Virus record (IMG/VR): IMGVR_UViG_3300021961_000019
Length of the DNA stretch: 64,000 nt
Source of the DNA: a virus
Reading direction: 5' to 3' (one strand)
Of this stretch, positions 4,790 through 53,081 are shown one piece after another; position 1 is the first letter of the stretch; each line of letters starts with the position of its first letter. A program made the translations under genes and the position numbers. Below the pieces are notes generated by a model. That model searched no databases and was not told the DNA's origin. It saw nothing but the letters and a program-made list of their open reading frames with translations.

Positions 4790-6700
4790 TTATAGTCTAA
4801 CGAGAGCGCCGTTTGCGTAACTTGAAGTAACTGTATATGTTGAACCAGAAATATCTGATCCTGATGAAATAGGATCTGCCAGCATATTGACAGAAGTGTT
4901 ATTAATATCTAGCTGCAAATAAAGATCCTGTAATCCGATCACATCGTTCGATTTTGGTGTGACCGAAATCTGAACAATTGAATCTGCGGAATCGAATTTC
5001 GCAGTCTCAATAATATTTAATGGATATAAAAGAATCTCTCCTTTTACATAATCAACCTTGCCAGCATTCTTTCTAACAATTGTTGGAGTGGTGCCGGTTG
5101 CATCAAGTTTAAAGAATACAATTTTTCCGGTCTCAAGATCCGAATTTGGAATATCAGTTAGGTAAACAAACTCAGATACTCCACTAATTTTGAATCCCGA
5201 TGACTTAATGTTGTATCCAGTATTATTTTTGATGTGGAACGCATTACCATAACAAATTTCATAATCAGCATATTTTCCAAGGGCAATACGAAGATCTCTC
5301 CTCATGGATACTGTTGTGATGTTGGATGTTACAGAGGAGTCACTTTCATCAACGAGTTTGAGGAATTTACTATATTTAAATCTTGCGCCATAACGGTTCA
5401 GTTCAGTTGAATCTGCATATCTTTCAACGTTCTTAATTACCTTGCTGCGAACAGATGCTGCACTCAAACTTGTATTGGTATTGTAGTATGCTGTGCAATC
5501 AATCTCAACATAAAGATACTTGAGATCTAGAATTTCTGGCACAATTCCCGCAACAGAATATCTGCGAAGAGTTCTCTTTAAATTATCTTTAATTGAGGAT
5601 GGTATATATGTACCATTTAGTGGTTTAATCGTAATGAACACCTTTCCAAACTGTGGGGGATTCAGATCTTCACCACCAAATACAGAGATGGATTCTGTTT
5701 CTGGGAAGATTGTGGGAATGATTGATTCATAGTCAGTTGCTGTAACTGCTCTATTATGTGCCTCATAAATTTTTGGCGCATATTTGCGAATTGACTCAAC
5801 AGATTCAATTGGTGTGCCGAATCTGGAGACAGCATCTGCAGTCAACGCAGAAATTCCACCGGAGATTACTGTATCGTTATTATCAAGAAGTCTTCCATTA
5901 AATGTAAATCCTGCAACACCATTTCCATCTTCGCCATTAGACAGGTGATATGAGATTTCAATTCTACTTCCATCAATTAATTTATTACCAAAGATGCCAT
6001 CACCAAAGATGATTTCATATCGTTCATCTGCAATTTCTTGTAGGAAGAAGACTCTAGATGTTGAAGTTACATCAAGTAGATTGTTTGAAAGTTGATATCT
6101 TACTCCAGTATTGGAACCGGGATCAAATACACGAACTCTGATTAGGGAAGTATCAACTCCAGCATTATCAAGAAGGAATCTTTGGTTGGGATCATTATAG
6201 TTTACTGTATATTCTGCTGTTACATATGAACCCTCATACACATAAACATTATTGAAGGATGCCACTCCAGAAACGACTGGAACGGTCACTTCATCCTGAA
6301 TGGCAAAGGTATAACTCTGACTACCGAAACGGGCGTTAGAGGTGCATACAAGACCCTTCTGGAGGGTGATTGTGGTTGGGTTGTTTGAGTATCCGGTCGT
6401 ATCAACAGTAAAGGATATTGCTGCCCTCGCTGCCCTTCTGGATCGAGGAAGATATCCAATTTGCTTTGCCAGAGAAACGACATTTTCCCTTAGCGTAGCA
6501 CTATCGATGAATACCTCATTACTCAACATGTTGGCATTATATGCCGAGATATAGGTATTAAACGCTAAAACGTCTATAAGAGTTGCTAGATTGGATCCTT
6601 CAAAATCGAAATCGGTAAAATCTGAGTTTGACCTCAGATAATCGACAATTGATTTTTTTATTTGATCAAAATCCAGGTTTGTGAAGTTAACTAGTGCCAT
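4790..6700 (-). CDS. gp6: Baseplate wedge subunit gp6
   Basis: N-terminus (NLDFDQIKKSIVDYLRSNSDFTDFDFEGSNL) and RAVTATDYE motif typical of T4 gp6; follows gp25. Confidence 0.92.
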   Translation of the reverse strand: MALVNFTNLDFDQIKKSIVDYLRSNSDFTDFDFEGSNLATLIDVLAFNTYISAYNANMLSNEVFIDSATLRENVVSLAKQIGYLPRSRRAARAAISFTVDTTGYSNNPTTITLQKGLVCTSNARFGSQSYTFAIQDEVTVPVVSGVASFNNVYVYEGSYVTAEYTVNYNDPNQRFLLDNAGVDTSLIRVRVFDPGSNTGVRYQLSNNLLDVTSTSRVFFLQEIADERYEIIFGDGIFGNKLIDGSRIEISYHLSNGEDGNGVAGFTFNGRLLDNNDTVISGGISALTADAVSRFGTPIESVESIRKYAPKIYEAHNRAVTATDYESIIPTIFPETESISVFGGEDLNPPQFGKVFITIKPLNGTYIPSSIKDNLKRTLRRYSVAGIVPEILDLKYLYVEIDCTAYYNTNTSLSAASVRSKVIKNVERYADSTELNRYGARFKYSKFLKLVDESDSSVTSNITTVSMRRDLRIALGKYADYEICYGNAFHIKNNTGYNIKSSGFKISGVSEFVYLTDIPNSDLETGKIVFFKLDATGTTPTIVRKNAGKVDYVKGEILLYPLNIIETAKFDSADSIVQISVTPKSNDVIGLQDLYLQLDINNTSVNMLADPISSGSDISGSTYTVTSSYANGALVRL

Positions 6701-7102
6701 TTATCGCGTTGGCTGAAGGGCAAATGATATTTGTTGCGCTGGAATATCGATTCCAACAATTTCGTAAGAAATTGTCACGTTAAATTCATTATTATCGTAG
6801 TCCGGACTGACAACTACTTCAATTAATTTGACTCTGGGTTCATATTGGTTGATAGTATCTTCAATTTCTTGCTGAATAAATCCCGCAGTAACAGGATCCA
6901 TGTTCTCAAAAAGTGCAGCACTTACTCTAGAACCCAAATTTTCATTAAAAAACCGCTCTCCGGGTTGAGTAAGGACAAGATTTCGCACGGAACGTGCAAT
7001 AGCACTCGCATTTTTAAGTGCGATGAGGTCATAATTGATGGGATTCACCAAAAATGACATGCTCAAATCTTTAAATCCTTTACTTACCCTTTGAATCGGC
7101 AT
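6701..7102 (-). CDS. gp25: Baseplate wedge subunit gp25
   Basis: SVRNLVLTQPGERFFNENLGS...YEPRVKL gp25 signature. Confidence 0.92.
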   Translation of the reverse strand: MPIQRVSKGFKDLSMSFLVNPINYDLIALKNASAIARSVRNLVLTQPGERFFNENLGSRVSAALFENMDPVTAGFIQQEIEDTINQYEPRVKLIEVVVSPDYDNNEFNVTISYEIVGIDIPAQQISFALQPTR

Positions 7103-7136: not shown

Positions 7137-7415
7137 TTATTGCAACCAATCTTTACCATAAATCGCTTCTGTGCCGTAATCCCAATCATCATAGTCCTGA
7201 TCGTTGCGAATACGTTCATGAAGCTCATTTTGAGCCTGAAAATCATGTCTTTTGGGTGTTTGATCGTCTTCGTTGATCTCACGAAGCATTCTTGCCTTGT
7301 GAAAACCCACTCCATGAGCAAAATGATTACCCTCAAGTGTGGTTTCATTTGCCTCCAGACTCTGAATTTCCCGTTCAGACCACATTCGTTGGATATTTTC
7401 GGAATTTTTGGTCAT
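7137..7415 (-). CDS. Hypothetical protein
   Basis: 92 aa ORF; late-like GTTAAATA upstream at 7436-7443. Confidence 0.65.
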   Translation of the reverse strand: MTKNSENIQRMWSEREIQSLEANETTLEGNHFAHGVGFHKARMLREINEDDQTPKRHDFQAQNELHERIRNDQDYDDWDYGTEAIYGKDWLQ

Positions 7416-8477: not shown

Positions 8478-8894
8478 TTAGGTTTTGTCAACCCTCAAAA
8501 ATCTCCCCCCTTTCCCTCTTGGAATATCTGTATTTCGGAAGTTTTCCGCGTGATCACACCATCTCAGATTTGTGACCTCGTTGCAGAGTTTGTCTCTGTT
8601 GATGTGGTCCACCTCTGAGAGATTGTGGGGGTTCTCTAGGAGGGTCTCCGCAATCAGTCTATGAACATAGTATCTGATCTGCTTGATGAACCTTCCAGAC
8701 TCATCTCTGAGGGATATATTGACTGCCGCATACAGTCGCTTATTCCCTCCTGCGCCCCCTCTAAGGTGCTGTGCCACCTCAACCTTTTCTGTGAGAATTT
8801 TTTCCCCGGATTTTTTTTGCGCATCTCTAAACACCTTTCCGTCTTCTGTGACGTAGTATCTGGGAAATTTTGTGGGGAAAAATATTTTTTGCAT
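8478..8894 (-). CDS. HNH homing endonuclease (HNH_3-type)
   Basis: VHRLIAETLLENPHNLSEVDHINRDKLCNEVTNLRWCDHAEN motif. Confidence 0.85.
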   Translation of the reverse strand: MQKIFFPTKFPRYYVTEDGKVFRDAQKKSGEKILTEKVEVAQHLRGGAGGNKRLYAAVNISLRDESGRFIKQIRYYVHRLIAETLLENPHNLSEVDHINRDKLCNEVTNLRWCDHAENFRNTDIPRGKGGRFLRVDKT

Positions 8895-9803: not shown

Positions 9804-9857
9804 GTATCTTCATCATAGGGTGCTGAAGACCGTTGGAGGGTTTTTCAGCGTATCTGC
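9804..9857 (-). promoter_or_regulatory. Class-1 promoter element, copy 1
   Basis: GCTGAAAAA box, then TATGAT GAAGATAC; CAGC end 32 nt from first base of -10. Confidence 0.75.
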
Positions 9858-9858
9858 T

Positions 9859-10110
9859 TCAGACTTCTTCATCCAGCAGATTGGGGACTTCTTTAATCTC
9901 AACCCCGAAATCTTCCAACACTTCATCACCATAAACATCACGAATCTCATTGATAAGTTCCGACTCGGAGTAGTTGTTAAGATTCTCCACAAGAGTATCA
10001 AACACAAACTGTTCCATCGATTTCGTGTCCATGCTGTCCATAATCTGTTCAGCATACTTCTCAACCAGTTCGGAGAAGTTGTCAGTCCAGGTGTAAGCGT
10101 TGTTGTTCAT
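9859..10110 (-). CDS. Acidic hypothetical protein
   Basis: 83 aa ORF in cassette. Confidence 0.65.
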   Translation of the reverse strand: MNNNAYTWTDNFSELVEKYAEQIMDSMDTKSMEQFVFDTLVENLNNYSESELINEIRDVYGDEVLEDFGVEIKEVPNLLDEEV

Positions 10111-10114
10111 GGTT

Positions 10115-10330
10115 TCAGTTCAGAATGATACGATAGTCGATTTCCAGGATGCACCAACCGGTTGCACAACTAATCTCTTCGATTAGATCCTCTTCATCAT
10201 CTGCCTCCCAGATTTGACCAACATACTCTTGATTGAGTTTTTCTTCAGTACAGATCTGGTCACTCAAAGACCAATCATCTTCACAATCAAGAGAGCAATC
10301 AAACTCAATTTTGGTGATTTGGAATTGCAT
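10115..10330 (-). CDS. Acidic hypothetical protein
   Basis: 71 aa ORF in cassette. Confidence 0.65.
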   Translation of the reverse strand: MQFQITKIEFDCSLDCEDDWSLSDQICTEEKLNQEYVGQIWEADDEEDLIEEISCATGWCILEIDYRIILN

Positions 10331-10333
10331 GAT

Positions 10334-10513
10334 TCAAACCAGTTCGGATTGCATTTCGACCTCTAAGGTCTTGAACTTGAAGTAATCATAACCGTCAACT
10401 TCTACCACCTCTTGCATGTACTTTTCAGCAGCAGAGAGACAGTCAAACAAACGAAGGGAAGAGAAATCTTCACCTTCATAATCGAATCCACCGATCACAG
10501 AGTAGACTTTCAT
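10334..10513 (-). CDS. Hypothetical protein
   Basis: TGATG coupling with upstream ORF. Confidence 0.65.
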   Translation of the reverse strand: MKVYSVIGGFDYEGEDFSSLRLFDCLSAAEKYMQEVVEVDGYDYFKFKTLEVEMQSELV

Positions 10514-10683
10514 CACAGATCAATCACGACGGAGTAGTATGCAACAGAGGAAGGAACTCCGCTTAAAGCAAGCGAACCGTTCCGGGAATCGCAATAGTCT
10601 TGCGCTTCATCATAGGACTCAAAAGGTCCAACGTACTCTGGGGATTCCAGAGACAGAGAATCAAATCGAACGGTGTGGGTCAT
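10513..10683 (-). CDS. Small hypothetical protein (56 aa, MTHTVRFDSL...)
   Basis: Manual ORF; RBS AAAGGAAA inside class-1 element. Confidence 0.6.
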   Translation of the reverse strand: MTHTVRFDSLSLESPEYVGPFESYDEAQDYCDSRNGSLALSGVPSSVAYYSVVIDL

Positions 10684-10697
10684 GGGTGGTTTCCTTT

Positions 10698-10752
10698 GGT
10701 ATCTTCATCATAGGGTGCTGGAACCCATTGAAGGGTTTTTCAGCACATGTGC
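10698..10752 (-). promoter_or_regulatory. Class-1 promoter element, copy 2
   Basis: GCACATGTGC palindrome, TGAAAAA, TATGATGAAGATACC; 32-nt spacing. Confidence 0.8.
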
Positions 10753-10753
10753 A

Positions 10754-10903
10754 TCAGAGTTCATCCCTCATTTCAGAAAGTTTATCGTAGATCAGAGATA
10801 CATCTGCACCCACGATTTCACTTACCTCAGACCAATCATCATGAAACTCAATGAGGGCAAGCAGAGCATCAAGTTCATCAAACGTGAGAGTTACTTTTTC
10901 CAT
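10754..10903 (-). CDS. Small acidic protein (49 aa, MEKVTLTFDELD...)
   Basis: Manual ORF. Confidence 0.6.
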   Translation of the reverse strand: MEKVTLTFDELDALLALIEFHDDWSEVSEIVGADVSLIYDKLSEMRDEL

Positions 10904-10905
10904 GA

Positions 10906-11076
10906 TCAGAAACCGTTGAGAAAGTTAGCAAGTGCTTCATCATACTCCTCTTTGGAGTTAAACACCTTTCCACCAACTGTGCGGGGATAGGTAGACTCTT
11001 TAGCAGGAGTTTGCGTCTCAGCGACACTGTAACCCTTCTCCAGAAGGGTCTGAACGTAGGGGTTGGAATGGGTCAT
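10906..11076 (-). CDS. Small hypothetical protein (56 aa, MTHSNPYVQTLLEKG...)
   Basis: Manual ORF downstream of class-1 element. Confidence 0.6.
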   Translation of the reverse strand: MTHSNPYVQTLLEKGYSVAETQTPAKESTYPRTVGGKVFNSKEEYDEALANFLNGF

Positions 11077-11088
11077 GGGTCTTTCTTT

Positions 11089-11143
11089 GGTATCTTCATC
11101 ATAACCCCTCCAGGGCGGTTGGAGGGGTTTTCAGCACTTGTGC
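11089..11143 (-). promoter_or_regulatory. Class-1 promoter element, copy 3
   Basis: Same architecture; perfect 10-bp inverted repeat 11103-11129 in spacer. Confidence 0.8.
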
Positions 11144-11144
11144 C

Positions 11145-11459
11145 TCAGTTGAGACGCATTCCGCTGAAGAAGGGAATTGCGGATCCGTCATACTGAACGA
11201 ACCACTCACCTTTCTTTTGGAACACATACTCACCAGGCATTCCGTGTGCCTGAAGAATAGCGTTCAGACGGGATTTGGTGGTGTTGGTCCTCCAACCACC
11301 ATCAAACAATTCGACGAACGTTTCACCAATCCGAGCGATCAGATTGTCGTACAGATACACATCAGAAACATGAGAATATGCGATCACTTCAGTGTTATCT
11401 TTCTTCCAATCCTTGTGCTGCAGGATTGCATCGTTCATTTGGGATTCGATCTTACGCAT
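11145..11459 (-). CDS. Hypothetical protein (MRKIESQMN...)
   Basis: ORF track frame; start moved. Confidence 0.7.
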   Translation of the reverse strand: MRKIESQMNDAILQHKDWKKDNTEVIAYSHVSDVYLYDNLIARIGETFVELFDGGWRTNTTKSRLNAILQAHGMPGEYVFQKKGEWFVQYDGSAIPFFSGMRLN

Positions 11460-11508
11460 GGTGCGCATGGTGGGAAAAGCGATGGGATGATGGGAGGTCT
11501 TCCCCCCT

Positions 11509-11563
11509 GGTAACTTCATCATACCCCCTCAGGGGTCGTTGGCGGGTTTTTCAGCAGAAGTGA
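11509..11563 (-). promoter_or_regulatory. Class-1 promoter element, copy 4
   Basis: GCTGAAAAA, then TATGATGAAGTTACC; 32-nt spacing. Confidence 0.8.
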
Positions 11564-11581
11564 TGCAGATCTTCACAATAT

Positions 11582-11609
11582 AAAAAATCCGGGGTTACCA
11601 GCCCCGGAT
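11582..11609 (-). terminator. Rho-independent terminator
   Basis: ATCCGGGG-7 nt-CCCCGGAT stem plus U-tract on minus strand. Confidence 0.8.
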
Positions 11610-11726
11610 CATTAACCCAACACCTATCCACTATTGATATCATTATCTCCGTTCAACTTCGATTCGGTTCCCATCCGAATCGGGGTGACTTTTCTTATAG
11701 CAGCGGCAAACCCTTTCCGCTCTTAC

Positions 11727-11987
11727 TTAGAAGTCGAAGACCTCAGAATTCAGTTCAATTGTATTCACCTTCTTGCTGTTATACTTAACGCCGTCCGGAG
11801 TTTCTTTTACTCCACACTCATAGAGTGCTTCCACGACATCTTCATAGTTGCCGAGTTCACCCGCAAGAGCATAGAGACCTTCATCATTCTGCAACCAGAG
11901 TGCAACATTCCAGGTTTCATAGTTGGTCCAACCATTATAACCTTTGTCGAAAACATTGGTCTTGTGAATGTCAAAGATGGTGTTCAT
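11727..11987 (-). CDS. Hypothetical protein (GYNGWTNYETWNVALW motif)
   Basis: Motif common in small phage proteins; start moved to 11987. Confidence 0.7.
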   Translation of the reverse strand: MNTIFDIHKTNVFDKGYNGWTNYETWNVALWLQNDEGLYALAGELGNYEDVVEALYECGVKETPDGVKYNSKKVNTIELNSEVFDF

Positions 11988-12088
11988 GATCTTAGAAACA
12001 ATTGGGTTGGGGTTGGGGGGTGCCCTTAGTTCCCCCCGTTGTGGCAGTTGTGCCACTTCCTAGAGCAGAGTGGAGGTCTTTCCCTCCC

Positions 12089-12142
12089 GTATCTTCATCA
12101 TACCCCCCGGAAGGGGTTCGGAAGGTTTTTCAGCAGATGTGC
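12089..12142 (-). promoter_or_regulatory. Class-1 promoter element, copy 5
   Basis: GCA-N4-TGC, TGAAAAA, TATGATGAAGATAC; 32-nt spacing. Confidence 0.8.
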
Positions 12143-12143
12143 A

Positions 12144-12371
12144 TCAGAAGTGAGATTCGGACCAATCAAGCATTTCGCTATACTTAGCGATGCCATCATA
12201 GCAACGCTTGCTCATCTCATGATCACCGTCTGCAACATAACCTTTCAGGAATTCGAAGCAATACTTGATACGCAGTTCAGGTGCGATTGCTTCCAGTTGT
12301 TGACGCTTACGCTCTTGATAGGAGTTGTAAGCAAACATTTCACGATCTTCGAATGACATTTGGTGAAACAT
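12144..12371 (-). CDS. Hypothetical protein (MFHQMSFEDRE...)
   Basis: Start moved to ATG after class-1 RBS. Confidence 0.65.
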   Translation of the reverse strand: MFHQMSFEDREMFAYNSYQERKRQQLEAIAPELRIKYCFEFLKGYVADGDHEMSKRCYDGIAKYSEMLDWSESHF

Positions 12372-12390
12372 GGTGTGGGTCCTTTCCTTT

Positions 12391-12445
12391 GGTATCTTCA
12401 TCATACCCCCCAGAGAGGGTCTGGAGGGTTTTTCAGCAGAAGTGA
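12391..12445 (-). promoter_or_regulatory. Class-1 promoter element, copy 6
   Basis: Same architecture; 9/10-bp inverted repeat in spacer. Confidence 0.8.
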
Positions 12446-12449
12446 TGCA

Positions 12450-12848
12450 TTACCACTTCTCCATCCACCCATGGCGGGTGCATTCTAAAGTAACGCCAGC
12501 ACGGTTGATGTTACGATCAAAATCAACATTTGCGGCACGAAGTGCATCATGATCAATCTTGGTTGCATCACAGTAGAATTTGATCGCACCATATGCAGTT
12601 TGAATCCTAGCAGCACCGTTGAGTTCATTATACTCAAGAACGGTATACTTGGTGAAATCAGTGCCGCCGCGGCCAACGGCTTTACCATCTACAACTGCAT
12701 CATCTTTGATGTCGATATAATGCTCCTGAAATCCGTATGCATCATAATAGCGACCATTCGGAAGTGCAACACCGGGAGCACATGCAGTGGTGAGAATAGC
12801 AAGACCAGCAACCAGAATGCCGGTGAGTTTGGTGAGAGTGGCAGTCAT
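12450..12848 (-). CDS. Putative lipoprotein
   Basis: Basic N-terminus, hydrophobic stretch, lipobox-like LTTAC. Confidence 0.55.
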   Translation of the reverse strand: MTATLTKLTGILVAGLAILTTACAPGVALPNGRYYDAYGFQEHYIDIKDDAVVDGKAVGRGGTDFTKYTVLEYNELNGAARIQTAYGAIKFYCDATKIDHDALRAANVDFDRNINRAGVTLECTRHGWMEKW

Positions 12849-12868
12849 GGTGTGGGTCCTCCCCTTTC

Positions 12869-12921
12869 TGTTATCAGTATAGGGTCCCGCAGGACCCCGA
12901 CTGAGTTTTCAGCACATGTGC
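12869..12921 (-). promoter_or_regulatory. Class-1 promoter element, copy 7
   Basis: GCACATGTGC, TGAAAA, TATACT; 32-nt spacing; 6-bp stem in spacer. Confidence 0.75.
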
Positions 12922-13193
12922 AGCACAGGTGCTGGTTGAACAGAAAAGGTGCCCAATCGGTCACAAGAGATAGAAACAGCGTGAGAAGGTGCTCCACACT
13001 CATCTACAACTTCCCACCAATCTTCACCTTCTTGAATCACAACATAACCGAAACATCCAGCGATGGAAAGAGACTTAAGGCCCCACTTTTCTGCATGAGT
13101 CTGATAATTCCACCAAGTCCTTTCGTTATAGAATTTGGAGGAATCATCAGAGCGAGGACCAAACGTGATGCAGGTGAATTTGAATTTGTCCAT
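12909..13193 (-). CDS. Hypothetical protein
   Basis: 94 aa ORF. Confidence 0.6.
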   Translation of the reverse strand: MDKFKFTCITFGPRSDDSSKFYNERTWWNYQTHAEKWGLKSLSIAGCFGYVVIQEGEDWWEVVDECGAPSHAVSISCDRLGTFSVQPAPVLHMC

Positions 13194-13195
13194 GA

Positions 13196-13351
13196 TCAGG
13201 AGATTGCACGAAGGTGTTTACGGGTGTCGAAACCTTTAGCATGTTCTTCCTTGCGCAACTTAGCAGCAAGTTCTGCAAAGGTATAGGGTTGATTTGCAGC
13301 AATCATGATTAATTGCTGAGATTGCAAATCACACGCCAATTGGTAAGACAT
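13196..13351 (-). CDS. Small hypothetical protein
   Basis: ORF track frame; start uncertain (13351 or 13306). Confidence 0.4.
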   Translation of the reverse strand: MSYQLACDLQSQQLIMIAANQPYTFAELAAKLRKEEHAKGFDTRKHLRAIS

Positions 13352-13358
13352 GGTGAAT

Positions 13359-13478
13359 TCAGTTGGCAAGAGCGTGACAATGAGCAAGGGCACCATAAGT
13401 CCTGAGAGCATACTGATATGCTTCAACTTTGGTGTAGAAGCACGCCACGGGACTTCCTTTGTAGTAGAGAGTGAACAT
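13359..13478 (-). CDS. Small hypothetical protein (39 aa, MFTLYYKGSPV...)
   Basis: Manual ORF after class-1 RBS. Confidence 0.55.
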   Translation of the reverse strand: MFTLYYKGSPVACFYTKVEAYQYALRTYGALAHCHALAN

Positions 13479-13495
13479 GGTGGGTCTCCTCCTTT

Positions 13496-13550
13496 GGTAT
13501 CTTCATCATACCCCCTCAGGACCCCCCGGAGGGTTTTTCAGCATCGATGC
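13496..13550 (-). promoter_or_regulatory. Class-1 promoter element, copy 8
   Basis: GCATCGATGC palindrome, TGAAAAA, TATGATGAAGATACC; 32-nt spacing. Confidence 0.8.
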
Positions 13551-13551
13551 G

Positions 13552-13836
13552 TCACATACGTTCACGCATCATCCGGTGAGCATGAGATTCTACAACTTTT
13601 AGTCCATCTTCTGTAGATGATACAAACCACGCTGCACATGTGCTTCCGTTGAGTGCAACTTCATCAGCAATCTTCCACGAATTCCCATAATATTGAATCA
13701 GCACGTAGTAATCATCAACTGCGCCAGCAATGAGTTGATTGAATGCATGGTAAACAGTATACTCATCTTCATGACGAACATGATGATTAAAAATATTTCC
13801 ATCTTCTAGAAGACGTGCGGTGATGATTTCAAACAT
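13552..13836 (-). CDS. Hypothetical protein
   Basis: 94 aa ORF between two class-1 elements. Confidence 0.65.
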   Translation of the reverse strand: MFEIITARLLEDGNIFNHHVRHEDEYTVYHAFNQLIAGAVDDYYVLIQYYGNSWKIADEVALNGSTCAAWFVSSTEDGLKVVESHAHRMMRERM

Positions 13837-13857
13837 GGTGGGTCTTTGATCTCAACA

Positions 13858-13909
13858 ATGTCAGCATATGCCCCTCAGGGCCCCCTGCAGGGTATTTCAG
13901 CAGATATTT
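13858..13909 (-). promoter_or_regulatory. Class-1 promoter element, copy 9 (divergent)
   Basis: GCTGAAAT, then TATGCT; 33-nt spacing. Confidence 0.55.
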
Positions 13910-14374: not shown

Positions 14375-14536
14375 CTACCAGAGATCATCTGTGTTGAGTT
14401 CTTTTACATCTACCTCTAGATGTTCACCACCTTCAAGATTTAAAATAGTATCCCAATCTAAATCTTGAGGATCAAAATCATCCATAACTTCTAGATCTAG
14501 AGTAATTCTGTACCTATGCATCTGTGCGTATACCAT
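14375..14536 (-). CDS. Small acidic protein (53 aa, MVYAQMHRYRITLDLEVMDDFDP...)
   Basis: Manual ORF; RYRITLDLEV..DFDP..DW pattern recalled from cyanomyophages; own promoter. Confidence 0.7.
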   Translation of the reverse strand: MVYAQMHRYRITLDLEVMDDFDPQDLDWDTILNLEGGEHLEVDVKELNTDDLW

Positions 14537-14560
14537 AAGAACCATCTGAACTCTATGTGT

Positions 14561-14589
14561 ATTATACCGCGCTTAGATTAATAAGGCAA
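14561..14589 (-). promoter_or_regulatory. Sigma70-like promoter
   Basis: TTGCCT-17-TATAAT pointing away from the repeat array. Confidence 0.65.
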
Positions 14590-14619
14590 GCGTTGAATGT
14601 ATATATGCAGCATGTGTAA

Positions 14620-15110
14620 ATCTAGTGTACTTATGTGAAGTATGTACATGAATCTAGATGTGTATATGCAGCATACATGAATCTAGATGTATATGTGTAT
14701 GATGTGAATCTAGTTGCATATGTGCAGCAGATCTAGTGCAATCTAGTTGTGTATATGATGTGCTGTAATCTAGTTGCAGAAATCTAGTTGCATATGTGCA
14801 GCAGATCTAGTTGTGTTTCAGCGGACCCGTGGCATTTCTGCAGCGTCCCTGGGGCAAATTTTCCGCGTCCCGTGGTTGACAAACTGCGCGTCCGGTGCTA
14901 AGCTGTCCAAGATCACAAGACCTGGGGGCATTTAAATGATCATAAGTGTATTAAAGATCTAGTTACATGATGTATAGATGATTTAATACATGATGATGAT
15001 TAATCTAGTTGTGTATATGATGATTAATCTAGTACATGAATCTAGTTGTGTATATGATGATGAATCTAGTTACATCTAGTTGTATAATACATGATGATTA
15101 ATCTAGTTGT
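14620..15110 (+). repeat. Non-coding array of 16 same-orientation ATCTAG(TTG) repeats; putative origin/iteron region
   Basis: 9 copies in 14620-14810 and 7 in 14955-15110, split by a GC-rich island; no ORF. Confidence 0.8.
14876..14904 (+). promoter_or_regulatory. Sigma70-like promoter inside the array
   Basis: TTGACA-17-TAAGCT. Confidence 0.7.
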
Positions 15111-15310
15111 GTATACATTGTTTAAAGAGATAATAAGATCAATATAAGTATCGTACCCATCCATATACCCATTAAAGCAACAGTTAATTGAAACATAATA
15201 CTATCCATATCTAATGGTTTATACTCCTATTATAGCACACTTAAACCTTTTATTTATTCCTCTAAAACATATATATTTTTACGTTTAACACAAACATCAT
15301 ATTATTCATT

Positions 15311-16117
15311 ATGACAAATACGGGCACAATATACCTCATTCTCAATCGTGTCAATGGACATAAGTATGTGGGTCAAACTAGGCAACAATTGAACACCAGA
15401 TGGAAGGCACATCTGACTGAAGCACGTTCTTATCCTACTCGTCCTCTCTACTATGCAATTAACAAATATGGTGCAGATAAGTTTACCATTAAGGTATTAG
15501 AAGAATGTTCGGTAGATAAGTTAAATGAAAGAGAAGTGTATTGGATTTCTAAACTCAATACCTTTAAAAGTGGTGTCGATTATAATGCAACTGCAGGTGG
15601 TGATTTCTTTGAACATACAGAGGCTACTAAACAAAAGATCTCTGAAGGAATGAGAAAGGTAGAGCGTTCGGATGAATGGATACAGAACATGTCTACCTCA
15701 TTAAAGGAAAAGGCAAAGAAAGAACCTTGGGGGTTTTTGAATGCAAAGAATAGAGCAGATGGTAAACATACACGTCGTAGAGTTAAAGGTGTATGTGTCA
15801 CCACTGGAAAAGAGAGAATCTTTGAAAGTATGACTGAAGCAGCAAGACAGGTGAATGGAAAGAGTGGTAATATCTGTGCTGCGATCAAGAACAATTGGAT
15901 GGCATATGGTTACAGATGGGAAAAGATTGATACACGTCCCAGTAAGTTACAATGCTATGGTGTGAATAAGCATACTGGTGAACAAACAGTCGTCTTTCCC
16001 AGTATTAAAGCTGCATGTCGTTATATGGGTGGAGATCATGATTCTGGTATTCGCAAAGCATTAAAAGCACCAGGAGTGTCCACATGGTATGGATACTACT
16101 GGTTCTTTGTGGCATAG
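15311..16117 (+). CDS. GIY-YIG homing endonuclease (Seg-like) with NUMOD-type C-terminal modules
   Basis: GTIYLILN...KYVGQT...RWKAH; ELNEREVYWI-like segment and YN motif; repeated FESMTEAAR / FPSIKAAC modules. Confidence 0.88.
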   Translation: MTNTGTIYLILNRVNGHKYVGQTRQQLNTRWKAHLTEARSYPTRPLYYAINKYGADKFTIKVLEECSVDKLNEREVYWISKLNTFKSGVDYNATAGGDFFEHTEATKQKISEGMRKVERSDEWIQNMSTSLKEKAKKEPWGFLNAKNRADGKHTRRRVKGVCVTTGKERIFESMTEAARQVNGKSGNICAAIKNNWMAYGYRWEKIDTRPSKLQCYGVNKHTGEQTVVFPSIKAACRYMGGDHDSGIRKALKAPGVSTWYGYYWFFVA

Positions 16118-16560
16118 AGTAGCACAATACAAACACCAACTGCAATACCAATCAAAGTGAATGGTGCAATGTCATTCACTCCCAAAGGTAATCTTTGATA
16201 GGTCTCAGAATCATCAGATCCATTTCTACACTTAGATGAAGATGCATAATCCCAGATTACTCTTGGTCCTTCGGTGTAGAACATTTTTGGATAATCATAA
16301 TATCCAATCTCTGCCTTGCAGATCTTACCTGAAGAGATTACATATCCACCTGAACAGGAGACTTCAAATCCTTCTTCTGTTTCAATCAGATGAAGATCAG
16401 ATTGCTCAAAATGCTTGGCTTTGATGCCTCTTGACCTTGCATTAAAGTGAGATTGCATTTCCTTACACTCTGCCTTAAATGGAAGATTCGCAGCAGAAAC
16501 AGAACCACCTGTCGTAAGTGCAAGGAATGCAATTAAAGATGCAATAGTAGATTTAAGCAT
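16096..16560 (-). CDS. Secreted/membrane hypothetical protein
   Basis: Signal-like N-terminus MLKSTIASLIAFLAL; C-terminal TM segment. Confidence 0.6.
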   Translation of the reverse strand: MLKSTIASLIAFLALTTGGSVSAANLPFKAECKEMQSHFNARSRGIKAKHFEQSDLHLIETEEGFEVSCSGGYVISSGKICKAEIGYYDYPKMFYTEGPRVIWDYASSSKCRNGSDDSETYQRLPLGVNDIAPFTLIGIAVGVCIVLLYATKNQ

Positions 16561-17179
16561 GATACTCTTTTTCACAATACTGACATGTAAGAACATGTTG
16601 CATTTCATCATTTCTCACTTCACGAATCACATCCGCAAGTGTTTCCAGTTTGGGACGACGTTGAAGTTCGCATTGTGGTTGAAACTTGTCAAATAGATAC
16701 TGATTCTCCTCATTCACATAATAGGTGATTGCGGCAGCAGGAACTGGTCCTTTCAGCAGATCTGAGTCAGATTGAAGAAACTTATCATAGGTCCCATAGG
16801 CATGTTTCTCAATCTCTGCCATCATGTAGTATGCTGCTGGGGCATCTACCACATACAAAATCACAACTGCCCAGTAATACAGTAGAGCAGCATGATAGGC
16901 TATAAATCGATTGATCCATTGCTTGTTGCCACCCAGTTCTTCAAAGATGCGAAGATGATGTTCTTCATTATAGGATTCTGCATAATGCACACTCAGCCAA
17001 TCATAGCGATCCCACATACCCAGAGATTGATACAGGTGCAGAACACTCATCCATGAGAAATAAGGTACTCGCGCAACTGTTTCCAATACCCAAAATCGTT
17101 CGATTGGTGCATTCTTGTAAACAATATCCAGTAGAAATACAACTACTGACACCATAAGATTTGCAATTAAACGTGTCAT
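16553..17179 (-). CDS. ptox: Plastoquinol terminal oxidase (PTOX/AOX di-iron family)
   Basis: RFWVLETVARVPYF; E-x-x-H ligands (NEEHH, DEMQH); EKHAYGTY. Confidence 0.92.
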   Translation of the reverse strand: MTRLIANLMVSVVVFLLDIVYKNAPIERFWVLETVARVPYFSWMSVLHLYQSLGMWDRYDWLSVHYAESYNEEHHLRIFEELGGNKQWINRFIAYHAALLYYWAVVILYVVDAPAAYYMMAEIEKHAYGTYDKFLQSDSDLLKGPVPAAAITYYVNEENQYLFDKFQPQCELQRRPKLETLADVIREVRNDEMQHVLTCQYCEKEYHA

Positions 17180-17577
17180 ATCCACACTCCAATTTCTTTT
17201 CTGGTTGCAATTTGATAATCTTGAAGTTTTCCTCTTACAAAATGAAGCCTACAGAGTGGAGCATCATCATAAGATTCATTACCTCTGTAATTATACACCG
17301 TTACATAATCTGTCAACTCAACTGGTTTGACCTTTCCATGCTTTCCAGTTGATTTAACTTTGTATTTGAACAAGGCAGACTTCAGAGTTCCATCATCAAC
17401 CCAATTTGGATCTTCTTGAAGTTCACTCGTTCCTGTGTAATCTGTAATCCACAATTGACCAGAAGGATCCATCCAATAGTAATCCATGAAGGAATTTAGA
17501 TCTTTGGTCTGACACTCCACATTTGTAAAACGTGGGCCCAGATCATAAGATGACCTGAAAGTGTCGTACATACCCAT
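17176..17577 (-). CDS. Hypothetical protein (MGMYDT...CQTKDL)
   Basis: 133 aa; ATGA coupled to PTOX. Confidence 0.7.
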   Translation of the reverse strand: MGMYDTFRSSYDLGPRFTNVECQTKDLNSFMDYYWMDPSGQLWITDYTGTSELQEDPNWVDDGTLKSALFKYKVKSTGKHGKVKPVELTDYVTVYNYRGNESYDDAPLCRLHFVRGKLQDYQIATRKEIGVWI

Positions 17578-20022: not shown

Positions 20023-21009
20023 CTACACACCCATAGCGTCCAGAAGGGGTGAATGTTCTACCTCTGCCACATCAATCTGCAGGTTTTCTATTGACTTCTC
20101 AAACAACTTCTTGCCTTCTTTGTTAAGATCGAATAAAACGTAATTTCTGCCGGTCAGAAGGGCACTCCTGCCCACCGTCCCAGACCCAGCGCAAGGATCC
20201 AGAACAATAGAATCCTCATCGCTAAACATCCTCAGAATACGATTCAGTAGAGCAACAGGTTTCTGTGTGGCATAATCCAGTTTCTCAACACCCTGTATCT
20301 GCTTAATGTCTGACCACACATCTTTGACTGGAATTCCATCCATCTCATCAAGATACTTCTTGACCCTAGGAATACCAGTATTGGATGAGTATTCAAGGCG
20401 ATTGTCATCATGAAGCATCTGCATTCTCTCCTTTGATACATGCCACTGGAGATCATGTCCATTCCATTTATATCTCAGGTTGGGTCTGGATACAACGTTT
20501 GGTTGACGATTTACCAGGGCAGATGTGTGATACTTCTTCTTGCGATATGGACAAATCTTTGCCTTTCGAACTGTCTCATCATCATACTCTTTATGCTCTG
20601 GATGATAGATGGACTCGGCACCCTTTTGATAGACTATGATCGTATCATGATTGCGCTGCAGTTGTTTCTTTGACTTGTGATTGCCGCCAGAGACCCATAC
20701 AATCTCATTCTTAAATCTCTTCTCACCAAACACATCATCAAGAACAATACGAATATGATGTGAGATCTTTGGTTCAACATGCACAACAATATTACCACGA
20801 TCTGTGAGAATACGATGACACTCCTGTAGAAGTGGGCGCATCAACAAATCGCGGTAATCTGCACTTGATTTGAACCTATCATCAAAATGATAGAAGTCCC
20901 TACCGGTACAATATGGTGGATCAATGTAAACAAGATCTACAGTATTCGCTTCAACTTTCTGCAGCAAATCTCTACTGTCACCGATGTTGTACTCGTTTAA
21001 GATCTTCAT
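20023..21009 (-). CDS. DNA N6-adenine/N4-cytosine methyltransferase (beta class)
   Basis: Motif IV YIDPPY near N-terminus; TQKP; motif I VLDPCAGSGT near C-terminus. Confidence 0.9.
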   Translation of the reverse strand: MKILNEYNIGDSRDLLQKVEANTVDLVYIDPPYCTGRDFYHFDDRFKSSADYRDLLMRPLLQECHRILTDRGNIVVHVEPKISHHIRIVLDDVFGEKRFKNEIVWVSGGNHKSKKQLQRNHDTIIVYQKGAESIYHPEHKEYDDETVRKAKICPYRKKKYHTSALVNRQPNVVSRPNLRYKWNGHDLQWHVSKERMQMLHDDNRLEYSSNTGIPRVKKYLDEMDGIPVKDVWSDIKQIQGVEKLDYATQKPVALLNRILRMFSDEDSIVLDPCAGSGTVGRSALLTGRNYVLFDLNKEGKKLFEKSIENLQIDVAEVEHSPLLDAMGV

Positions 21010-21523
21010 AGATAAGAACCTCTTTCGCACGTCCTGTATACTTCTTACGAACTGCTGCTGGCACAGAACCAACACAGTATCCTGGCATATTCTTGTCTTC
21101 TAACTCATAACTGGGAATAGCAAGATACTCCCAATCAGAGATGTCCTCATAACCATTTGGTATGATGAACAGTATAACATCAAATGAATTGATTGCATAC
21201 CTCACCTGACCATTCTTTGCTCCCTGAGTAGCATTCTTACCCGTGGTCCTTCGGGTCTGTTCCATGTGAAGGGAATTGCCTCCACGATACTTCACTTGAA
21301 TGCGAAGATTGTTGGTAGATAGACGATCATACTTCTCCTGCTGACCATCAGCATCATTAGGAGATGGTTTTGTTTGAATTCCACACTCCTCACGCAACCA
21401 CTGGGGTGCGATAATCCTTTCCGTTGGAAATGCAAGAAACTTACCAATCTCTCTGGTGTCACCTTCGGTGATGAGTTCCTGAAACCCAAGGGCAACAATT
21501 TCTGAAAGTGATGATACTGACAT
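20978..21523 (-). CDS. Putative PD-(D/E)XK-fold endonuclease (restriction-like)
   Basis: KYD-x9-IQVK catalytic-like pattern; overlaps MTase start by 32 nt. Confidence 0.5.
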   Translation of the reverse strand: MSVSSLSEIVALGFQELITEGDTREIGKFLAFPTERIIAPQWLREECGIQTKPSPNDADGQQEKYDRLSTNNLRIQVKYRGGNSLHMEQTRRTTGKNATQGAKNGQVRYAINSFDVILFIIPNGYEDISDWEYLAIPSYELEDKNMPGYCVGSVPAAVRKKYTGRAKEVLIYEDLKRVQHR

Positions 21524-21524
21524 T

Positions 21525-21647
21525 TCAACCACCGTAGATCATTGCAAAGGTGAAAAGCACAAATAAAACAACTGTGAAAACCATCATACCAACACCTGCC
21601 CAGATTACCCAGTTGGGCATTGGTTCATAATTGTGATTGTGTGCCAT
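21525..21647 (-). CDS. Small membrane peptide (40 aa, MAHNHNYEPMPNWVIWAGVG...)
   Basis: Manual ORF; single TM segment; TGA-a-ATG coupling to nuclease. Confidence 0.65.
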   Translation of the reverse strand: MAHNHNYEPMPNWVIWAGVGMMVFTVVLFVLFTFAMIYGG

Positions 21648-30129: not shown

Positions 30130-30427
30130 AGGTAGATACCAGAAATACTTTGATAGTTTGTCCATCATCTTGTAGTGACACCTGAACGTTAGAACATTCA
30201 TAACGAACATACTCACGTCCATCACTACCAATTACCTCTACACGGGTGACATCAGGATAACTCCTGATGACATCTTTGTGTTCAAGATCATCTTCATCCC
30301 ATGGTTTCTGCCCGAAGGTTTCGCGATCAATTCCAAGAGATTTCAATGCAAGATCCTCATTGAATCCATCATAGGTAGTGTCTAACCAGGGAGCATCATC
30401 TTTGTCAGGTAAATTGTGCTCAGTCAT
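30122..30427 (-). CDS. Hypothetical protein
   Basis: VTRVEVIG..GREYV motif; start moved. Confidence 0.65.
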   Translation of the reverse strand: MTEHNLPDKDDAPWLDTTYDGFNEDLALKSLGIDRETFGQKPWDEDDLEHKDVIRSYPDVTRVEVIGSDGREYVRYECSNVQVSLQDDGQTIKVFLVSTYD

Positions 30428-30611
30428 CAATTTGCCCCTCATAAGAGTAATTCACATATAGATTGTCTCCACCAATGTTTAGGTGGTACATTTTGCCATC
30501 TGCAAGATAGATTCCCATCCACACAGCACGACCTTCTTCCATGGTTTCAAAGTGAAACATTCTCACATTTTCCAGAACAATTTCGTCTGGATTCTTTATA
30601 AAGTGTGTCAT
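30420..30611 (-). CDS. Hypothetical protein
   Basis: 63 aa; coupled to neighbours. Confidence 0.65.
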   Translation of the reverse strand: MTHFIKNPDEIVLENVRMFHFETMEEGRAVWMGIYLADGKMYHLNIGGDNLYVNYSYEGQIDD

Positions 30612-53000: not shown

Positions 53001-53081
53001 TGCGAGAGAGGGGAGTCGAACCCCTACACCTTTCGATACTGCGTTCTAAGCACAGCGTGGCTACCGTTACACCACTCTCGC
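53001..53081 (-). tRNA. trnL: tRNA-Leu (anticodon TAG)
   Basis: Acceptor stem GCGAGAG/CTCTCGC-A; anticodon arm CTGTG-CTTAGAA-CGCAG; long variable arm; GGTTCGACTCC T-arm; no encoded CCA. Confidence 0.93.

What the first reader, a model, noticed from the sequence alone, without database searches (positions are those of the whole stretch)
14540..15310. Origin-like locus: 16 ATCTAG iterons split by a phased GC island containing a promoter
Seen: about 770 bp without an ORF. There are 9 + 7 same-orientation ATCTAG(TTG) repeats in a low-complexity TGTATATGATG matrix. A central GC-rich island has GCGTCC boxes at 14843, 14865 and 14888 (22-23 bp phasing, about two helical turns) and a related box at 14821. 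These overlap a plus-strand TTGACA-17-TAAGCT promoter. A second promoter (14561-14589) points away on the left, and an AT-rich stretch lies at 15110-15310. Known: T4 origins are promoter-primed R-loop origins with a downstream unwinding element, and oriE carries iterons. Inference: a replication origin or genome-organising site. The plus-strand transcript through the right repeat block could be a primer RNA or ncRNA.
Basis: partly seen in the sequence, partly recalled or inferred. Interest (0 to 1): 0.75.

Follow-up and report, generated by a model that had tools for sequence, protein, structure and literature searches.

The report
Cyanophage origin-like module with 11-mer array
A gene-free 770-base stretch of this T4-like virus of marine cyanobacteria is its version of a control module kept by many related viruses; here 16 copies of a private 11-letter repeat are present and the host DnaA sites that about half of the relatives carry are absent, which makes it the best, still unproven, candidate for the virus's replication start.

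Summary
There are 16 same-strand ATCTAG boxes (9 + 7; consensus GAATCTAG(T/A)TG) in 490 bp where 0.1 is expected, around a GC-rich island with a TTGACA-17-TAAGCT promoter. A second promoter points left and an AT-rich tract lies to the right.

The window is an uncultured T4-like cyanophage (Kyanoviridae). The stretch is one form of a conserved non-coding module: back-to-back host-type promoters, a conserved 53-58 aa gene to the left (phrog_12516), a conserved untranslated leader and an AT-rich tract to the right.

Comparable arrays sit at the same place in 10 non-redundant related contigs. The 11-mer occurs nowhere else in three 85-108 kb contigs. Boxes vary less than the spacers between them.

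Of 33 array-less relatives, 18 carry the cyanobacterial DnaA box TTTTCCACA, mostly downstream of the promoter where the window has its right block. None of the 10 array loci does.

Best reading (about 45%): a promoter-activated, iteron-type replication origin, closest to T4 oriE, with an unidentified box-binding protein in place of host DnaA. Main rival: an operator array that only controls early transcription. No replication or binding data exist.

This scan had already noted the DnaA-box form of the module in other cyanophage genomes. The DnaA-free array form is the new element here.

The parts
14375..14536 (-). First gene of the leftward early unit: a 53-aa acidic protein of a family (phrog_12516, function unknown) that flanks the module in nearly all relatives
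   Evidence: PHROG hit E 1e-17. Homologues were found next to the module in 58 of 70 loci and in cultured Synechococcus and Prochlorococcus phages. The AF2 model has pLDDT 79 and no fold match.
14561..14589 (-). Leftward sigma70-type promoter (TTGCCT-17-TATAAT)
   Evidence: Promoter scan gives 10 of 12 matches. Equivalent TTGACA-type promoters sit at the same place in relatives, in several lineages with an ATCTAG box in the spacer. In the window that spacer box is degenerate (CTTAGAT).
14618..14813 (+). Left block: 9 co-oriented boxes, consensus GAATCTAG(T/A)TG, in a TGTATATGATG-like matrix
   Evidence: Consensus from 156 boxes in 12 loci. Box columns vary less than spacer columns.
14821..14893 (+). 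GC-rich island: four units of about 22 bp starting GCGGAC/GCGTCC, the last two overlapping the promoter
   Evidence: Read directly. The three GCGTCC boxes recur in the closest relative L004. Other relatives have a different repeat of about 22 bp (CTCGGAGTTTT...) at the same place.
14876..14904 (+). Rightward sigma70-type promoter TTGACA-17-(TG)nTAAGCT
   Evidence: Aligned with 50 distinct relatives. TTGAC is invariant and the extended -10 (GTGATAGAnT in most) is conserved. 65 IMG/VR contigs match the promoter-plus-leader pattern.
14905..14945 (+). Conserved untranslated leader (CTAAGATCACAAGACC...CATTTAAA)
   Evidence: Columns C62-G74 of alignment A1 are invariant or nearly so across 51 sequences.
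14955..15111 (+). Right block: 7 co-oriented boxes, +81 to +230 from the -35
   Evidence: This is the interval in which array-less relatives carry DnaA boxes (median +135, 10-90% +100 to +212). The block is absent from the closest relative L004, which has a 55-aa ORF there.
15112..15310 (.). AT-rich tract (60-84% A+T), ending in the motif AACATATATATTTTTAC (15266-15282), which resembles the AT-rich end of the module in relatives
   Evidence: Across 40 non-redundant loci, A+T peaks at 0.74-0.80 at +150 to +225 against 0.56-0.64 elsewhere.
15311..16117 (+). Flanking GIY-YIG/NUMOD homing endonuclease. It is a mobile neighbour, not part of the conserved module
   Evidence: Pfam GIY-YIG 1e-10, NUMOD1 1e-7. 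It is present next to the module only in L004 and L029.

Best explanation
The stretch is the window phage's copy of a non-coding module kept across T4-like cyanophages, upstream of the baseplate gp25-gp6 genes. It most likely serves as a replication origin that is switched on by early transcription.

Shown by sequence and comparison:
- Two back-to-back promoters of the host sigma70 type.
- The left promoter drives a conserved small acidic protein and a run of small early genes.
- The right promoter drives a conserved leader with no ORF, which runs into AT-rich, easily melted DNA.
- In about half of the relatives that downstream DNA holds cyanobacterial DnaA boxes.
- In this phage and a set of relatives there is no DnaA box, but 7-19 co-oriented copies of GAATCTAG(T/A)TG. 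The motif occurs at this one place per contig, and its boxes are conserved while the spacers drift.

Inferred:
- Host RNA polymerase fires the right promoter early. The transcript opens or primes the AT-rich tract, as at the T4 oriE and oriF/G origins.
- The repeat array binds many copies of one sequence-specific protein, not yet identified, which does here what DnaA bound to its boxes does in the relatives.
- The box that several lineages carry in the spacer of the left promoter lets the same protein feed back on early transcription, as plasmid iteron-binding initiators do.
For: Clustering and strand bias of the boxes.

Syntenic arrays in 10 non-redundant loci. On the tree of the neighbouring gene they need at least 3 gains or losses.

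The 11-mer is found only in the array in contigs of 95, 108 and 85 kb: 5 of 5 hits each, control pattern 0.

Box columns are variable in 36% of cases against 54% for spacer columns (odds ratio 0.47, P 1e-14).

Promoter and leader are conserved in 51 distinct sequences.

The strict DnaA box TTTTCCACA occurs at 0.76 per kb around the promoter against 0.014 per kb elsewhere in the same loci.

None of 10 array loci has a DnaA box, against 18 of 33 array-less loci (12 with two or more). A control pattern gives 1 hit against 36. Fisher P 0.002, not corrected for phylogeny.

The window's right block occupies the DnaA-box interval.

There is an AT peak downstream of the promoter in 40 loci.

In complete genomes, close pairs of DnaA boxes occur only at this module in Syn9, S-SM2 and P-TIM68.

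TTTTCCACA is the cyanobacterial DnaA box (PMC4674748).

T4 oriE has an early promoter and iterons and lies 1.7 kb upstream of gene 6. T4 origins tend to sit at points of transcriptional divergence.

Syn9 encodes gp59, the T4-type helicase loader.
Against: No initiator candidate was found. The neighbours have no DNA-binding family. The conserved neighbour is acidic, has no fold match and does not resemble T4 RepEA or RepEB. Two profile comparisons gave no array-specific DNA-binding protein.

Box spacing is irregular, unlike classical iterons.

Fifteen of 33 array-less loci have neither DnaA boxes nor an array, so neither element is essential to the module.

In most relatives the array lies upstream of the promoter, not where the DnaA boxes lie.

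One more distant lineage (L088/L089) has five ATCTAGTT boxes together with four DnaA boxes, two of the boxes overlapping a promoter, so the exclusion is not absolute and the boxes look like operators there.

GC skew is uninformative.
Confidence: 0.45

Rival explanations
1. The array is an operator array for early transcription only. The boxes are sites for a repressor or activator, of phage or host, that sets the output of the two divergent early promoters, for example shut-off of early genes. The module has no role in starting replication. In relatives DnaA would likewise act as a transcription factor or roadblock on the rightward transcript.
For: The array lies between two divergent promoters. 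Several lineages have a box in the spacer of the left promoter, 6-9 nt from its -35. In L088/L089 the boxes overlap the -35 and the spacer of a TTGACA promoter. DnaA boxes in relatives lie inside the transcribed region. DnaA is a known transcription factor (established knowledge; abstracts listed).
Against: 7-19 copies spread over 200-500 bp is far more than promoter control needs. The motif is absent from all other promoters of 85-108 kb contigs. The window adds 7 more copies downstream of the promoter. The rightward transcript has no conserved ORF to regulate. The conserved AT-rich tract is left unexplained.
Confidence: 0.3
2. The array is a protein sink or a genome-handling site. It would titrate a host DNA-binding protein (as a decoy), or serve as a centromere-like, packaging or DNA-entry signal, as the repeat-and-DnaA-box region of T5 does for its injection stop.
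For: One site per genome with many co-oriented copies. In the window, two blocks flank a promoter as in plasmid R1 parC (from my own knowledge). The T5 non-coding region with repeats and DnaA boxes works as an injection stop signal (bioRxiv 10.1101/866236, abstract).
Against: No partition or terminase-linked genes lie next to it. The two-block layout is private to the window; relatives have one block. T4-type phages package by headful without a unique site (established knowledge). No paired ATCTAGTT sites above the control level were seen in 401 cyanobacterial genomes, so no host array is being mimicked.
Confidence: 0.1
3. The array is a neutral minisatellite: a slippage-prone repeat in a tolerant intergenic gap, without function of its own.
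For: Copy number varies from 7 to 19. There are recent tandem duplications of whole units (a unit of about 103 bp is doubled in L004, and a 37-bp period runs through the window's right block). Spacing is irregular.
Against: The same 11-mer in the same orientation persists in lineages whose spacers no longer align. Boxes are significantly less variable than spacers. The array stays at one syntenic place and is found in at least 3 lineages on the neighbour-gene tree.
Confidence: 0.07
4. The rightward promoter makes a structured regulatory ncRNA, and the repeats are part of that RNA.
For: The promoter and the first 40 or so transcribed bases are conserved, and there is no ORF.
Against: Folding is no better than shuffled sequence (z -0.27 for 14911-15130 and +0.21 for 14811-14945). 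There is no Rfam match. Sequence beyond about +60 is not alignable among relatives. The inverted repeat around the -10 shows no covariation.
Confidence: 0.05

Closest known systems
Bacteriophage T4 oriE (Vaiskunaite et al. 1999; review Kreuzer and Brister 2010, PMC3016281)
   Same: Both are in T4-type phages. Both have an early (host-type) promoter whose transcript is thought to prime replication, and a cluster of short direct repeats. Both lie upstream of baseplate gene 6: 1.7 kb in T4, 1.7-3 kb in Syn9 and S-SM2, 7.8 kb in the window. Both have a small early gene on the origin transcript and a GIY-YIG homing endonuclease next door (segC in T4).
   Different: T4 oriE lies antisense inside gene 5, and its 12-nt repeats are evenly spaced and unrelated in sequence. 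Their role is itself unproven. No RepEA or RepEB relative was found beside the window's module. Here the module is a gene-free divergent-promoter region, and relatives carry host DnaA boxes, which T4 origins do not.
DnaA-box form of the same cyanophage module
   Same: The same neighbour gene family, the same pair of promoters, the same leader and the same AT-rich end.
   Different: The window and its array-bearing relatives have no TTTTCCACA box and instead carry 7-19 GAATCTAG(T/A)TG boxes.
Iteron origins of theta plasmids and phage-plasmids (RK2 oriV, P1 oriR, F oriS, pSC101; review PMC4980987, listed)
   Same: Co-oriented direct repeats, AT-rich unwinding DNA, a GC-rich segment, optional host DnaA boxes, and a repeat copy inside a nearby promoter.
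   Different: Plasmid iterons are 17-22 bp at regular spacing of about 22 bp, next to their Rep gene. Here the box is 11 bp, spacing is irregular and no Rep gene is evident.
T4 oriF (uvsY) and oriG (gene 34) R-loop origins
   Same: A promoter followed by easily unwound DNA. The helicase loader gp59 is encoded by cyanophages.
   Different: Those use MotA-dependent middle promoters and have no repeats. Cyanophages lack MotA (from my own knowledge).

Membership tests
Conserved cyanophage (Kyanoviridae) divergent-promoter module | Rightward TTGACA-17/18-TAnnnT promoter followed by the leader CTAAGAYCACAAG | tested here: met
   The window aligns with 50 distinct relatives; these columns are invariant or nearly so.
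Conserved cyanophage (Kyanoviridae) divergent-promoter module | Leftward neighbour gene of the phrog_12516 family with its own promoter | tested here: met
Conserved cyanophage (Kyanoviridae) divergent-promoter module | Host-type DnaA boxes (TTTTCCACA) near the promoter | tested here: not met
   No strict or loose box lies in the window's module or in any of the 10 array loci. Boxes are present in 18 of 33 array-less loci. They are therefore an optional part of the module.
Conserved cyanophage (Kyanoviridae) divergent-promoter module | AT-rich tract 150-225 bp downstream of the promoter | tested here: met
   Window 14951-15310 is 60-84% A+T. The peak across 40 loci is 0.74-0.80.
T4 oriE-type origin | Early-mode (host sigma70) promoter directed into the origin | tested here: met
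   Sequence match and conservation only. Promoter activity was not measured.
T4 oriE-type origin | Cluster of evenly spaced short direct repeats | tested here: inconclusive
   The repeats are direct and co-oriented, but spacing runs from 10 to 60 bp with no single period.
T4 oriE-type origin | RepEA/RepEB proteins encoded at the origin | tested here: not met
   The conserved neighbour shows no similarity to T4 RepEA or RepEB (hhalign probability below 1%). The rest of the genome could not be searched because no whole genome is held.
T4 oriE-type origin | Replication initiates there early in infection | not testable with these tools
Iteron-type theta origin (RK2, P1, F, pSC101) | Three or more co-oriented iterons beside AT-rich DNA | tested here: met
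   16 boxes, with the AT-rich tract adjacent.
Iteron-type theta origin (RK2, P1, F, pSC101) | Cognate initiator (Rep) gene adjacent and autoregulated through a repeat in its promoter | tested here: inconclusive
   Several relatives have a box in the spacer of the left promoter (degenerate in the window). No Rep-like or DNA-binding protein was recognised among the neighbours.
Bacterial oriC | DnaA-box cluster next to dnaN or dnaA | tested here: not met
   No DnaA box in the window's module. The neighbours are phage genes.
Plasmid R1 parC-type centromere | Two repeat blocks flanking the promoter of a ParM/ParR operon | tested here: not met
   The two blocks exist only in the window. The downstream gene is a homing endonuclease, and relatives have one block.

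The most novel reading that the evidence does not exclude
T4-like cyanophages share one origin module whose initiator-binding cassette is interchangeable. Most lineages dock host DnaA, while this lineage has swapped the DnaA boxes for an array bound by an undescribed sequence-specific initiator, of phage or host. That would make its replication start independent of host DnaA. The 11-mer array would be a ready handle for fishing out that protein.
Probability: 0.3. Interest if true: 0.8.

Novelty: new variant of a known kind. Interest (0 to 1): 0.6.

Why it matters
Where and how T4-like cyanophages start copying their DNA is unmapped. The papers I could reach give only a predicted single theta origin for Syn9, with no location. 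These viruses are major killers of the ocean's main photosynthetic bacteria.

This module gives a precise, conserved and testable candidate. Its two natural forms, host DnaA boxes or a private 11-mer array, make a ready-made comparison for asking whether the phage depends on the host initiator. The array is also a direct bait for finding a new DNA-binding protein.

Tried and rejected
1. Nucleotide searches of the 50,697 phage records with the region found nothing (megablast and blastn). Relatives were reached only through motif scans of IMG/VR.

2. GC skew. The window shows only a change of slope near 15-16 kb. The Syn9 whole-genome cumulative skew rises monotonically because nearly all its genes share one strand. 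It is uninformative and is not used.

3. Inverted repeat TGTGAT/ATCACA around the -10 of the right promoter, tested as a hairpin or cruciform. Covariation is no better than shuffles. The left arm is explained by the extended -10.

4. Structured ncRNA. Not supported by folding z-scores or Rfam.

5. The neighbour protein (phrog_12516) as the DNA binder. It is acidic, has no fold match and does not resemble RepEA or RepEB.

6. Array-specific proteins.
- ORFs shared by three array contigs and absent from Syn9, S-SM2 and P-TIM68 gave no DNA-binding candidate.
- A 92-aa protein (7137-7415) also occurs in array-less loci.
- A 63-aa protein (30420-30611, phrog_16148) was found only in array loci among IMG/VR loci. 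Its homologues in S-PM2, S-RIM8, S-RIM32, S-SZBM1 and DSL-LC02 sit in genomes without any array. The link is rejected.

7. Host counterpart of the array. Triple boxes occur in 32 unrelated bacterial contigs, none from marine picocyanobacteria. Paired boxes in 401 cyanobacterial genomes are at control level.

8. NtcA-type GTA-N8-TAC sites: none in the region.

9. DnaA-trio reading of the GATGATG matrix: rejected on strand polarity (reasoning only).

10. The Syn9 transcriptome and genome papers (Doron 2016, Weigele 2007) are not held, so published TSS data and the predicted origin position could not be compared.

Full report
WHAT THE WINDOW IS. The window encodes baseplate proteins gp6 (4790-6700) and gp25 (6701-7102), a plastoquinol terminal oxidase (16553-17185) and Kyanoviridae-specific families. 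Its gp6 is at most 58% identical to those of Synechococcus and Prochlorococcus myoviruses. It is therefore an uncultured T4-like cyanophage. No nucleotide match exists among 50,697 phage records, and no whole genome is held.

THE OBSERVATION.
- Sixteen ATCTAG boxes lie on the + strand, nine at 14620-14805 and seven at 14957-15101. About 0.1 is expected, and only three more occur on that strand in the other 63.5 kb.
- The box is wider than six bases. From 156 boxes in 12 related loci the consensus is GAATCTAG(T/A)TG.
- Spacing is irregular (10-60 bp).
- The GC island holds GCGGAC/GCGTCC units about 22 bp apart. The last two overlap TTGACA-17-TAAGCT (14876-14904), which has a TG one base upstream of the -10.
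- The leftward promoter (14589 to 14561) scores 10 of 12.
- DNA from 14951 to 15310 is 60-84% A+T.
- No conserved coding sequence lies in 14546-15310.

RELATIVES. Motif scans of IMG/VR found the same array at the same place in many contigs.
- The array always lies to the right of a homologue of the small gene 14375-14536 and always has the same orientation.
- Copy number is 7-19. In L004 a unit of about 103 bp has recently doubled.
- The closest relative, L004 (about 79% identical over the flanks), keeps the left block, the GCGTCC boxes and the identical promoter. It has a 55-aa ORF where the window has its right block.
- In three contigs of 85-108 kb the 11-mer occurs only in the array.
- In alignments of related arrays, box columns vary less than spacer columns (36% against 54%, P 1e-14). 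Selection therefore acts on the box and not on the repeat unit.

THE MODULE BEHIND THE ARRAY.
- The right promoter and the first 40 or so transcribed bases (CTAAGATCACAAGACC...CATTTA) are conserved in 65 IMG/VR contigs, 51 of them distinct.
- Cultured phages S-SCSM1, S-SM2 and P-TIM68 keep recognisable versions; in Syn9 the leader survives but the promoter is degenerate.
- The left neighbour, a 53-58 aa acidic protein (phrog_12516, function unknown), was found in 58 of 70 loci.
- Most of these loci have no ATCTAG array.
- Downstream of the promoter, many array-less loci carry one to six copies of TTTTCCACA, often 21 or 42 bp apart, sometimes with an inverted copy 13-14 bp further on. TTTTCCACA is the cyanobacterial DnaA box (PMC4674748).
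- These boxes occur at 0.76 per kb around the promoter against 0.014 per kb in the rest of the same loci.
- In complete genomes, close pairs of them occur only at this module.
- A+T content peaks at 0.74-0.80 at +150 to +225 from the -35 across 40 non-redundant loci.
- The module lies upstream of gp25-gp6 in the window (7.8 kb), S-SM2 (3 kb) and Syn9 (1.7 kb).

ARRAY VERSUS DnaA BOXES.
- Among 43 non-redundant loci, none of the 10 with an array has a DnaA box. Of the 33 without an array, 18 have at least one and 12 have two or more. A control pattern gives 1 hit against 36 (Fisher P 0.002, not corrected for relatedness).
- A tree of the neighbour gene is short and weakly resolved, but it needs at least three changes of the array state. 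It places the L001-L003 arrays as sister to DnaA-box loci.
- The window's right block spans +81 to +230, the interval where DnaA boxes lie in relatives (median +135).

Four caveats apply.
- Fifteen array-less loci have neither element.
- In most array loci the array is upstream of the promoter, not where the DnaA boxes sit.
- A close relative (L154) has a variant box (ATCTCGTCGAGAT).
- A more distant lineage (L088/L089) has five ATCTAGTT boxes together with four DnaA boxes, two of the boxes overlapping a promoter.

Both elements therefore look like optional protein-docking cassettes on a common core. They are largely, but not strictly, alternative.

HOW IT MOST LIKELY WORKS. The core is a host-type early promoter, an untranslated transcript, AT-rich DNA and a site of transcriptional divergence. 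That is the layout of the T4 origins that use a transcript as primer. T4 oriE in particular combines an early promoter with short direct repeats and lies 1.7 kb upstream of gene 6, with a GIY-YIG endonuclease beside it (PMC3016281; T4 annotation). Cyanophages encode the gp59 helicase loader. Docking cassettes for DnaA or for an iteron-binding protein next to AT-rich DNA are the hallmark of plasmid and phage-plasmid origins.

I therefore read the window's stretch as a promoter-activated origin in which an unidentified protein bound to the 11-mer array replaces DnaA. The box that several relatives carry in the spacer of the left promoter would give feedback on early transcription. None of these steps is shown; all are inferred from anatomy and comparison. 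I put this at about 45%.

RIVALS.
- Transcription control only (about 30%). The boxes sit between and inside promoters. However, the copy number, the uniqueness of the site, the lack of any ORF on the rightward transcript and the AT tract all fit this reading poorly.
- A protein sink, centromere-like, packaging or entry signal (about 10%).
- A neutral minisatellite (about 7%), argued against by box conservation.
- A structured ncRNA (about 5%), argued against by folding, Rfam and the lack of alignable sequence beyond +60.

WHAT FAILED.
- The binding protein was not found. Neighbours have no DNA-binding family. The conserved neighbour has no fold match and no likeness to RepEA or RepEB.
- Two comparisons of array carriers with array-less genomes gave nothing convincing. 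The one promising 63-aa protein (30420-30611) also occurs in five cultured phages without arrays.
- Host genomes show no matching arrays.
- GC skew is uninformative.
- The hairpin around the -10 has no covariation support.
- Published Syn9 transcript maps and the position of its predicted origin could not be read.

PRIOR NOTES OF THIS SCAN. After I had found the DnaA boxes, a look-up showed that the scan had already reported the DnaA-box form of this module in several other cyanophage genomes, with the same reading and the same closest known systems. It had also noted one other genome with a GAATCTAGTT tract. I found no paper describing either form in the library searched.

What this window adds:
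- the DnaA-free array form of the module;
- its near-exclusive relation to the DnaA boxes;
- the second block at the DnaA-box position.

VERDICT. The feature is real, conserved and non-random. It is an origin-like module of a known general kind in a new variant. Its function is unproven, and it is well suited to direct tests.

Noticed in passing
window 9804-13904 (copies near 9804, 10699, 11090, 11510, 12089, 12392, 13497, 13871): A repeated cassette of about 67 nt stands in front of many small leftward genes. Read on the minus strand it is CTGCTGAAAAA, a GC-rich hairpin, TATGATGAAGATAC, a ribosome-binding site and ATG. On the + strand the hairpin plus T-run looks like a terminator. The TATGATGA and GCAGCA words recur in the matrix of the ATCTAG array.
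   Followed up: partly
window 15311-16117 (+) and 8478-8894 (-): Two free-standing homing-type endonucleases flank the early region: a GIY-YIG/NUMOD enzyme directly after the module, and an HNH enzyme. T4 also has a GIY-YIG gene (segC) beside oriE.
   Followed up: partly
L128:2670-2900 (IMG/VR contig 3300044949_001148): Between the conserved promoter and the DnaA boxes this relative has about 20 tandem copies of a 10-12 bp unit (GGTTTATAAG / GGTATTATAAGA). Other relatives have 1-4 copies of CATTTA(A/T)AAG there; the window has one (CATTTAAATG, 14930-14939).
   Followed up: no
L154:4450-4790: A close relative of the L001 group carries a variant array (about 7 copies of GTCGAGAT, many as the palindrome ATCTCGTCGAGAT, some as AATCTAGTCGAGAT). 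It has no strict DnaA box (one loose TTWTNCACA match). The box appears to be evolving.
   Followed up: no
L089:30-330 and L088:1925-2215: A more GC-rich cyanophage lineage has five ATCTAGTT boxes flanking four DnaA boxes. Two of the boxes overlap the -35 and the spacer of a TTGACA promoter.
   Followed up: partly
L092:495-590: Six ATCTAG boxes (GTGTGAATCTAGTTGAGTTTT units) lie in an intergenic gap upstream of a small leftward gene in another relative, away from the main module.
   Followed up: no
window 20023-21532 (-): An N6/N4 DNA methyltransferase (Pfam 6e-40) overlaps the end of a 184-aa ORF of no known family.
   Followed up: no
window 30420-30611 (-): A 63-aa protein (phrog_16148, function unknown) has homologues in S-PM2, S-RIM8 and other Synechococcus phages, and weaker ones in Gordonia phages.
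   Followed up: yes
window 53001-53081 (-): A single tRNA-Leu gene, anticodon TAG.
   Followed up: no
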